A DNA stretch of 41,323 bases from Escherichia coli (GTDB lineage: Bacteria > Pseudomonadota > Gammaproteobacteria > Enterobacterales > Enterobacteriaceae): NCBI RefSeq assembly GCF_003334405.1, contig NZ_QOWM01000024.1. One strand, written 5' to 3'. The notes under the pieces are model-generated. The model searched no databases. It had not been told where the DNA came from and worked only from the letters and a program-made list of their open reading frames with translations. The translations under genes were made by a program, and so were the position numbers. Of this stretch, positions 41,084 through 41,157 are shown piece after piece (positions within the stretch are counted from its first letter, which is position 1; each line of letters begins with the position of its first letter).

Positions 41084-41157
41084 ATTCATATTTAAAATGT
41101 TAAATTGAATTGATATTTTAAATATGAATAATTTATTCGTTCTGACAGTACGAATAA
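41084..41157. promoter_or_regulatory. chiA upstream AT-rich region with two inverted repeats
   Basis: ATTCATATTTAAAAT (41084-41098) and its exact reverse complement ATTTTAAATATGAAT (41115-41129), 16-bp spacer; second repeat TTATTCGT (41133-41140) / ACGAATAA (41150-41157). Confidence 0.4.

What the first reader, a model, noticed from the sequence alone, without database searches (positions are those of the whole stretch)
41084..41157. Two inverted repeats (15-bp arms with 16-bp spacer, and 8-bp arms with 9-bp spacer) in the chiA upstream region
ATTCATATTTAAAAT and its exact reverse complement are separated by 16 bp. A second inverted repeat TTATTCGT / ACGAATAA follows immediately. Both lie between the tufA terminator and the chiA start codon in an AT-rich stretch. 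Such long exact symmetry is unlikely by chance even in AT-rich DNA and marks a candidate operator, cruciform or RNA structure controlling chiA.
Basis: seen in the sequence. Interest (0 to 1): 0.45.

Follow-up and report, generated by a model that had tools for sequence, protein, structure and literature searches.

The report
AT-rich palindromes upstream of chiA
Two real, non-random palindromes lie 105-178 bp upstream of the mapped transcription start of chiA, the H-NS-silenced chitinase gene of E. coli; they are found only in E. coli, lie outside the chiA transcript and have no demonstrated role, so this is a modest curiosity in a promoter region that has already been studied.

Summary
IR1 has perfect 15-bp arms (41084-41098 and 41115-41129) and a 16-bp spacer. 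IR2 (41133-41157) is really a 25-bp near-palindrome. Both exceed chance for this 27% GC spacer: IR1 was matched by 0 of 5000 shuffles, and IR2 has P about 0.014.

The locus is E. coli bfd-chiA-tufA, all on the minus strand. The published chiA start site maps to window 40979, with -35 TTGAAG and -10 AATAAT. The repeats therefore sit at -105 to -178, upstream of the promoter and just past the tufA terminator. They are not in the chiA mRNA.

IR1 occurs once per genome, and only in the roughly 58% of E. coli genomes that carry chiA. Most strains have 17-bp arms; one lineage broke an arm without compensation. Five relatives from other genera keep the tufA-chiA order but lack both repeats. No Rfam family, NagC/Mlc, IHF, Fis or H-NS consensus fits. 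A published mutation of a motif about 150 bp upstream left BglJ-RcsB activation intact.

The likeliest reading is that this is part of the AT-rich DNA through which H-NS silences chiA, and that the symmetry is incidental. An unidentified operator, most plausibly IR2, is not excluded. Interest is low to moderate.

The parts
41084..41098 (.). IR1 left arm, ATTCATATTTAAAAT (-105 to -119 from the chiA start)
   Evidence: Exact reverse complement of 41115-41129. None of 5000 shuffles gave a perfect inverted repeat of 14 bp or more.
41099..41114 (.). IR1 spacer, GTTAAATTGAATTGAT. It is partly self-complementary. In most E. coli strains G41099 is A, which gives 17-bp perfect arms and a 12-bp spacer.
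41115..41129 (.). IR1 right arm, ATTTTAAATATGAAT (-136 to -150)
   Evidence: The best local matches of three other-genus spacers fall on 41099-41128, but each is individually non-significant.
41133..41157 (.). IR2, a 25-bp near-palindrome TTATTCGTtCTG-A-CAGtACGAATAA centred on 41145 (-154 to -178)
   Evidence: P about 0.014. Invariant in 11 E. coli haplotypes except for A41156T at the outer edge.
41177..41204 (-). tufA intrinsic terminator: 12-bp stem with 6 G-C pairs, followed by a T run
   Evidence: -18.5 kcal/mol. Homology with E. coli genomes that lack chiA ends at its foot, about 41176.
41009..41014 (-). chiA promoter -35 hexamer, TTGAAG
   Evidence: Promoter scan. The position fits the published start site.
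40986..40991 (-). chiA promoter -10 hexamer, AATAAT (17-bp spacer)
40979..40979 (-). chiA transcription start. Published position 3467918 in NC_000913.2 equals 3469896 in NC_000913.3, which is 43 nt upstream of the ATG.
   Evidence: PMC3950696. Version 3 coordinates of chiA and tufA come. The version 2 to version 3 offset of +1978 is from my own knowledge; it is consistent with the 291-bp spacer and with the -10 hexamer ending 7 nt upstream.
41010..41021 (.). Third copy of the arm motif, TTCAATATGAAT (11 of 12 identical to 41118-41129), abutting the -35 hexamer. 41014-41028 is 15 of 15 identical in Citrobacter rodentium.
   Evidence: (D5, I7). By my hand estimate, not significant as a repeat once multiple testing is considered.
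38243..40936 (-). chiA coding sequence (897 aa, bifunctional chitinase/lysozyme)
41228..41323 (-). 3' end of tufA (elongation factor Tu), cut by the end of the window

Best explanation
IR1 and IR2 are E. coli-specific AT-rich palindromes inside the upstream DNA through which the nucleoid protein H-NS (with StpA) silences the chiA promoter. They sit at -105 to -178 from the mapped start, between the tufA terminator and the core promoter. This stretch is 22-23% GC, and IR1 itself is 89% A+T with many TpA steps, which is the kind of DNA H-NS prefers to coat or bridge.

On this reading the repeats contribute as AT-rich H-NS substrate. The dyad symmetry itself is incidental. It probably arose in the Escherichia lineage by inverted duplication or template switching, copying an older element kept in relatives (about ATATTTAAAATATCAAT). 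The symmetry is not required for regulation.

Shown here or in the literature: the position relative to the start site, the composition, the restriction to E. coli, H-NS repression of chiA, and its activation by BglJ-RcsB.

Inferred: that H-NS contacts these exact bases, and that the symmetry is dispensable.
For: - The published chiA start maps to 40979, with matching -35 and -10 hexamers, so the repeats are upstream DNA and not transcript.
- chiA is H-NS repressed. It is expressed as highly in a delta-hns stpA mutant as with constitutive BglJ, and no BglJ-RcsB box could be found at chiA, which suggests activation by relief of silencing (PMC3950696).
- 41000-41179 has the lowest GC of the last 5 kb of the window, 0.225-0.233.
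- There are 5 promoter-like hexamer pairs against 1.4 expected, as is typical of silenced AT-rich DNA.
- The co-silenced gspA-gspC spacer also carries AT-rich palindromes, for example ATCAATATATTGAT at 26716-26729.
- Mutating a predicted motif about 150 bp upstream of the chiA start, which falls within or next to IR1/IR2, did not change BglJ-RcsB activation.
- The symmetry is not conserved outside E. coli.
- The arms are not significantly less variable than the flanks: 2 of 46 sites against 16 of 116, P = 0.10.
- One lineage, about 102 genomes, carries A41096G without a compensating change.
- IS1, which favours AT-rich targets, has inserted in or beside IR1 and IR2 in two genomes.
Against: - There is no match with 2 or fewer mismatches to the published 10-bp high-affinity H-NS motif TCGATAAATT inside 41084-41157.
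- I could not read Francetic et al. 2000, so I do not know which bases H-NS protects.
- A perfect 15-17-bp repeat is far beyond what composition gives. IR2 is a 25-bp dyad of the size typical for a dimeric regulator. Both leave room for a sequence-specific function.
- The arms do show a non-significant deficit of polymorphism.
Confidence: 0.5

Rival explanations
1. One or both repeats are operators for a sequence-specific regulator that has not been identified. IR2 is a 25-bp dyad suited to a dimer. The IR1 arms, 31 bp centre to centre (about three helical turns), plus the third motif copy next to the -35 hexamer, could seat a multimer or a DNA loop that represses or activates chiA.
For: - IR1 and IR2 both exceed chance.
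- IR2 is invariant in 11 haplotypes apart from one outer base.
- The motif ATTCATATT occurs three times, once abutting the -35 hexamer in a stretch that is 15 of 15 identical in C. rodentium.
- The arms show fewer polymorphisms than the flanks, as a trend only.
Against: - No tested consensus fits. NagC/Mlc needs TT/AA at positions +/-5,6, and IR2 has GT/AC (and the sequence). IHF and Fis have no hits. No BglJ-RcsB box was found, and the mutated upstream motif was neutral.
- The repeats are absent from all five other-genus relatives that keep chiA behind tufA.
- One arm is broken without compensation in a natural lineage.
- No second copy exists elsewhere in the E. coli genome.
Confidence: 0.17
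2. The repeats have no function at all. They would be a neutral product of quasi-palindrome template switching or local duplication in low-complexity AT-rich DNA, carried along by recent common ancestry within E. coli.
For: - They are restricted to E. coli.
- There is no significant constraint on the arms.
- Arm-breaking and spacer changes are tolerated.
- The arms are themselves built from a short palindrome, ATATTTwAAATAT, so the structure can be generated by copying.
Against: This largely overlaps the best explanation, since H-NS would bind such DNA regardless. It cannot be separated from it without binding data. IR2 and the IR1 arms are somewhat less variable than their surroundings.
Confidence: 0.18
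3. The repeats act as RNA elements. On the minus strand they would be weak backup hairpins behind the tufA terminator: IR1 is followed by GUUUCUGUUUUU, and the hairpins could stop or process read-through from the very highly expressed str operon before it reaches chiA. Alternatively, they could be part of a short plus-strand transcript running from the TTGAAT-16-AATAAT promoter-like site (41105-41132) to the bidirectional terminator.
For: - Predicted folds: the minus-strand 117 nt gives -22.2 kcal/mol (z = -3.7) and the plus strand -26.5 kcal/mol (z = -4.7).
- A U-rich tail follows IR1 on the minus strand.
- There is a plus-strand promoter-like site.
- Two arm or near-arm substitutions are A to G, which keeps G-U pairing in the plus-strand RNA.
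Against: - The IR1 stem is almost all A-U: -9.7 kcal/mol with a 16-nt loop on the sense strand, against -18.5 kcal/mol for the real terminator. The terminator scan does not call it.
- No Rfam family comes near its threshold; the best is 20.9 bits against a gathering score of 50.
- Two other substitutions break plus-strand pairing.
- The repeats are not conserved in relatives.
- No transcript evidence was available to me.
Confidence: 0.08
4. IR1 extrudes as a DNA cruciform under negative supercoiling and alters local topology or protein access at the chiA promoter.
For: AT-rich arms of 15-20 bp; the predicted single-strand DNA hairpin is -10.3 kcal/mol, z = -4.3.
Against: - The perfect arms are separated by 12-16 bp, and the inner pairs include G-T mismatches in DNA, which disfavours extrusion.
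- The site lies just downstream of a very active operon, where positive supercoils are expected (established twin-domain model; inference).
- H-NS coating would stabilise the duplex.
- There is no conservation outside E. coli.
Confidence: 0.04

Closest known systems
Upstream AT-rich silencer regions of H-NS-repressed promoters (for example the bgl and proU regulatory elements, and the gspA-gspC spacer of the same locus)
   Same: Very AT-rich DNA flanking a weak sigma-70 promoter of a cryptic, patchily distributed gene. The gene is derepressed in hns stpA mutants and by H-NS antagonists such as BglJ-RcsB. The region holds clusters of promoter-like hexamers and short AT palindromes.
   Different: No match to the 10-bp high-affinity H-NS motif at 2 or fewer mismatches. 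A perfect 15-17-bp dyad is not a defining feature of such regions. H-NS contacts at these bases have not been seen by me.
NagC/Mlc (ROK family) operators of chitin and N-acetylglucosamine genes
   Same: IR2 is an AT-flanked quasi-palindrome of about 23-25 bp with TTATT...AATAA arms, next to a chitinase gene. That makes it a biologically attractive candidate.
   Different: The only invariant feature of these operators, TT/AA at positions +/-5,6 from the centre (PMC4288165), is not met: IR2 has GT/AC. The TTCG/CGAA blocks also lie further from the centre.
Intrinsic (Rho-independent) terminators
   Same: A hairpin followed by a U-rich run (IR1 on the minus strand), placed directly behind the tufA terminator.
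   Different: The stem has one G-C pair in 15 and a 16-nt loop, and folds at -9.7 kcal/mol. The terminator scan does not call it.
Split operators with long spacers (NikR GTATGA-N16-TCATAC; Lrp arrays with about 30-bp phasing)
   Same: Two half-sites separated by 16 bp, with arm centres 31 bp apart, about three helical turns.
   Different: For NikR the orientation and spacing of the TATGA/TCATA blocks are wrong. The SELEX Lrp consensus is matched in only 8 of 15 positions and lacks the flanking CAG/CTG. Both comparisons were made by eye from consensus sequences recalled from memory; they are leads, not tests.

Membership tests
H-NS-bound silencer DNA | Target gene derepressed when hns (and stpA) are removed | not testable with these tools
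   Literature only. [quoted passage not shown]
H-NS-bound silencer DNA | Markedly AT-rich tract relative to its surroundings | tested here: met
   GC is 0.225-0.233 over 41000-41179, against about 0.5 in chiA. The spacer is 27% GC. IR1 has 5 G/C in 46 bp (read from the sequence).
H-NS-bound silencer DNA | Match to the high-affinity 10-bp motif tCGATAAATT | tested here: not met
   No hit with 2 or fewer mismatches inside 41084-41157. Counts across the whole window equal chance. The best local match, TTGATATTTT, has 3 mismatches.
H-NS-bound silencer DNA | Direct H-NS occupancy of these bases (footprint or ChIP) | not testable with these tools
   Francetic et al. 2000 is not held. No occupancy data were accessible.
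NagC/Mlc operator | Invariant TT and AA at positions -6,-5 and +5,+6 around the centre of symmetry | tested here: not met
   The rule comes from PMC4288165. IR2, centred on 41145, has G41139 T41140 and A41150 C41151.
Cis-regulatory RNA in the chiA 5' leader | Element lies downstream of the transcription start | tested here: not met
   The start site is at 40979. The repeats lie at 41084-41157, which is -105 to -178.
Any described RNA family (Rfam 15) | Score at or above the family gathering threshold | tested here: not met
   The best hit is 20.9 bits against a threshold of 50, E = 0.33. The hits are driven by the tufA terminator.
Intrinsic terminator | G+C-rich stem with a short loop, followed by a T run | tested here: not met
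   The scan finds only the tufA terminator. The IR1 stem has one G-C pair and folds at -9.7 kcal/mol. A T-rich tail is present.
Dispersed repeat, MITE or other mobile-element end | Multiple copies per genome, or presence on phages or plasmids | tested here: not met
   There is one locus per genome; the two 'places' reported are the two strands of the palindrome. There are no true plasmid matches and no phage matches.
BglJ-RcsB activator box | Motif whose mutation abolishes activation by BglJ-RcsB | not testable with these tools
   Literature only. The predicted motif about 150 bp upstream of chiA was mutated without effect, and no box was characterised or predicted at chiA.
IHF or Fis site | Match to WATCAANNNNTTR (IHF) or GNNYAWWWWWTRNNC (Fis) | tested here: not met
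   No hit in the spacer.
Conserved regulatory element of chiA | Retained in other genera that keep chiA behind tufA | tested here: not met
   L011, L015, L020, C. rodentium L016 and Enterobacter L017 keep the gene order but have no IR1 or IR2. Only a weak, non-significant match to one arm plus the spacer was found.

The most novel reading that the evidence does not exclude
IR2, the two IR1 arms and the third ATTCATATT copy beside the -35 hexamer together form an operator set for an E. coli-specific regulator that has not been identified, or a defined H-NS bridging module. It would loop about 110-170 bp of DNA onto the chiA promoter and so give this cryptic chitinase a dedicated switch.
Probability: 0.1. 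Interest if true: 0.5.

Novelty: new member of a known kind. Interest (0 to 1): 0.2.

Why it matters
chiA encodes a secreted chitinase/lysozyme that is silent in laboratory E. coli, and the signal that turns it on is not known. If the palindromes were a specific operator, they would offer a handle for finding that signal and its regulator. As it stands they add only fine detail: exact positions relative to the mapped promoter, their population variants, and their absence in relatives. All of this concerns a promoter already known to be silenced by H-NS and activated by BglJ-RcsB. The natural variants found here give ready-made alleles for a simple test: 15-bp arms, 17-bp arms, a broken arm, and IS1-disrupted copies.

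Tried and rejected
- **Rfam scan at permissive threshold:** only sub-threshold hits, driven by the tufA terminator.
- **NagC/Mlc operator for IR2:** rejected on the invariant TT/AA rule.
- **H-NS 10-bp motif, IHF and Fis consensus scans:** no hits in the repeats.
- **Consensus sequences checked by eye from memory:** Xer/dif arm (AAATGTTAAAT resembles the XerD arm, but the G is a K-12-specific derived base and no XerC arm is present), NikR, ArgR box, Fur box, GlpR, LexA, FNR/CRP, PmrA, ArcA and Lrp. None fits in both sequence and spacing. These are leads only.
- **Mobile element or MITE:** single copy per genome, no terminal repeats, no true phage or plasmid matches.
- **Constraint on the arms within E. 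coli:** 11 haplotypes give only a trend (P = 0.10). There are too few substitutions to test covariation.
- **The 12 most divergent E. coli genomes (80-90% identity in IR1):** A search with the L015 spacer found nothing in E. coli.
- **Literature:** Francetic et al. 2000 (both papers) is not held. The supplement of PMC3950696 is not held, so the exact bases mutated at about -150 are unknown. Several full-text hits for 'chiA' were author names.
- **DNA curvature modelling:** not attempted, because I could not verify the wedge parameters.

Full report
**What is there**

The end of the window is the E. coli bfd-chiA-tufA region, with all three genes on the minus strand. chiA is the 897-aa ORF at 38243-40936. 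The last 96 bases of the window are the 3' end of tufA. A near-identical K-12-derived RefSeq genome annotates the flanking genes as chiA and tuf. The window differs from that genome at one base in 361, at 41007. The tufA terminator hairpin is at 41177-41204 on the minus strand.

A script confirmed both repeats exactly as described. ATTCATATTTAAAAT lies at 41084-41098, with its reverse complement at 41115-41129 and 16 bp between them. TTATTCGT lies at 41133-41140 and ACGAATAA at 41150-41157, with 9 bp between them.

IR1 is the longest perfect inverted repeat with a spacer of 40 bp or less in the 41-kb window. With G-T pairs allowed it extends to 20-nt arms with 6 nt between them. Each arm holds a 13-bp palindrome ATATTTwAAATAT. 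IR2 is better described as a 25-bp near-palindrome, TTATTCGTtCTG-A-CAGtACGAATAA, centred on 41145.

**Is it more than chance?**

- IR1: none of 5000 dinucleotide-preserving shuffles of the 240-bp, 27% GC spacer gave a perfect inverted repeat of 14 bp or more, and P(13 bp or more) = 4e-4. IR1 is clearly non-random.
- IR2: eight-bp arms alone are ordinary (P = 0.34). The 11-of-12 dyad with a 1-nt centre is moderately unusual (P about 0.014).

**Position relative to the chiA promoter**

Salscheider et al. (PMC3950696) confirmed by 5'-RACE the start site mapped earlier by Francetic et al., at NC_000913 position 3467918. In NC_000913.3, chiA is 3467160-3469853 and tufA is 3470145-3471329, so the paper must use version 2 coordinates. 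The offset here is +1978; this figure is from my own knowledge, and it is consistent with the 291-bp spacer. That puts the start 43 nt upstream of the ATG, at window 40979.

The independent hexamer scan fits this. It finds -35 TTGAAG at 41014-41009, a 17-bp spacer, and -10 AATAAT at 40991-40986, ending 7 nt upstream of 40979. IR1 is therefore at -105 to -150 and IR2 at -154 to -178. Both are upstream of the promoter, 20-90 bp past the tufA terminator, and outside the chiA mRNA. This removes the 'RNA structure in the chiA transcript' reading.

**What is known about this promoter**

- chiA is repressed by H-NS.
- It is expressed as highly in a delta-hns stpA mutant as with constitutive BglJ.
- It is activated by BglJ-RcsB.
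- No BglJ-RcsB box could be found. Mutating a predicted motif about 150 bp upstream of the start, which falls within or next to the repeats, did not change activation.
- The region 41000-41179 is 22-23% GC, the lowest in the last 5 kb of the window.
- It carries 5 promoter-like hexamer pairs against 1.4 expected.

**Distribution within E. coli**

Of 5426 complete genomes, 3139 have the whole chiA-tufA junction. The others match only from about 41176 onward, at the foot of the terminator, and have tufA followed directly by bfd.

IR1 is single-copy in every genome that has it:

| IR1 state | Genomes |
|---|---|
| Identical to the window | 1463 |
| 1-2 differences | 1584 |
| 3-4 differences | 102 |
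| 80-90% identity | 12 |

In every sampled sequence the 1-2 difference class carries G41099A, which makes the arms 17 bp and the spacer 12 bp. This variant is probably ancestral, since it is found in Nissle, Shigella and most other haplotypes.

The 102-genome lineage carries A41096G in the left arm with no compensating change, plus two spacer changes.

Across 11 haplotypes, 2 of 46 arm positions vary against 16 of 116 in the rest of the upstream region (Fisher P = 0.10). That is a trend, not evidence of constraint. IS1 has inserted at the left-arm/spacer junction in one genome and beside IR2 in another, where it also removed the chiA 5' end.

**Other genera**

I retrieved chiA relatives at 70-76% protein identity. 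They come from a Superficieibacter-like genome (L011), two unnamed enterobacterial contigs (L015, L020), Citrobacter rodentium (L016) and Enterobacter sp. (L017). All have chiA directly behind tufA, and all but C. rodentium have bfd next downstream. None has IR1 or IR2; the only strong inverted repeat in each spacer is the tufA terminator.

The best local match of three of these spacers to the E. coli spacer falls within 41099-41128 (on the minus strand, TTCATATTTAAAATATCAATTC...). Each match is individually non-significant. This hints that one arm plus the spacer is older and the second arm was added in Escherichia.

C. rodentium shares 15 of 15 bases at 41014-41028, just upstream of the -35 hexamer. 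The -35 and -10 regions also align across genera, which supports the promoter assignment.

**Tests against known kinds**

- Rfam: nothing near threshold.
- NagC/Mlc, the attractive candidate for a chitinase gene: requires TT/AA at positions +/-5,6. IR2 has GT/AC, so the rule is not met.
- H-NS 10-bp motif: no hit with 2 or fewer mismatches in the repeats.
- IHF and Fis consensus: no hits.
- Phages and plasmids: no real matches.
- RNA folds:

| Element folded | Strand | Energy (kcal/mol) |
|---|---|---|
| IR1 | minus (chiA/tufA sense) | -9.7 |
| IR1 | plus | -16.9 |
| tufA terminator | minus | -18.5 |

  The z-scores of the longer folds simply restate the repeat. The few substitutions do not consistently preserve pairing on either strand.

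**Conclusion**

They are a young, E. coli-only feature of upstream DNA that is already known to be under H-NS control.

I judge it most likely (about 0.5) that they matter only as very AT-rich H-NS substrate, and that the dyad symmetry is incidental, a product of inverted duplication or template switching. The remaining probabilities are:

- Pure neutrality: 0.18. It cannot be separated from the main reading without binding data.
- An unidentified specific operator, IR2 being the better candidate: 0.17.
- RNA-level roles (backup terminator or antisense transcript): 0.08.
- A cruciform: 0.04.

Symmetry-preserving and symmetry-breaking arm swaps, H-NS footprints and DNA pull-downs would settle the question.

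Noticed in passing
window 41176 (foot of the tufA terminator) and 38076-38242; loci L002, L003: About 42% of complete E. coli genomes lack chiA and most of the gsp cluster, and have tufA-bfd-bfr followed by a prepilin peptidase gene and rpsJ. Homology with the window breaks exactly at the foot of the tufA terminator. In those genomes bfd and its upstream region also differ in sequence from the window. This looks like two old haplotypes rather than a simple deletion.
   Followed up: partly
L013 (IS1 at about window 41098/41099) and L009 (IS1 next to about window 41136): Independent IS1 insertions fall inside IR1 and beside IR2 in two E. coli genomes. The second has also removed the chiA promoter and the 5' end of the gene.
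   Followed up: partly
window 41007: The window has T where all 10 other haplotypes, and the best full-length matches among 3132 chiA-positive complete genomes, have C. This is a private base change at -28, in the spacer of the chiA core promoter just after the -35 hexamer.
   Followed up: partly
window 38243-40936; proteins P0001-P0086: ChiA length varies widely within E. coli and Shigella (701, 771, 791, 796-799, 894, 897 and 900 aa), while the upstream spacer stays at 291 bp with no indels. The lower identities of the shorter forms are probably due mainly to gain or loss of repeated N-terminal units; L018 and L019 carry the K-12 spacer.
   Followed up: partly
window 26482-26800 (gspA-gspC divergent spacer): This second H-NS-silenced spacer is also full of AT-rich palindromes. 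Examples are the perfect 14-bp ATCAATATATTGAT at 26716-26729 and ATGTATTTAttaatTAAATACAT near 26529-26551. It also holds a 2-mismatch copy of the IR1 arm at 26754-26768.
   Followed up: no
window 41052-41066 and 41164-41180: Imperfect direct repeats, GCCTGACAAATGAAGC and GCCGTCAACAAATGCAAA, flank the block that holds IR1 and IR2. There are no terminal inverted repeats and no empty site in relatives, so this is probably chance.
   Followed up: no
window 41105-41132 (+) and 41177-41204: A plus-strand promoter-like site, TTGAAT-16-AATAAT, would start transcription inside IR2 and run about 65 nt into the tufA terminator read in reverse (four T residues follow it). That would make a hypothetical small transcript antisense to the tufA 3' end. 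No expression evidence was available.
   Followed up: no
L016 (Citrobacter rodentium) 4322-5424: In C. rodentium chiA is followed by a second glycoside hydrolase family 18 gene, where the other genomes have bfd.
   Followed up: no
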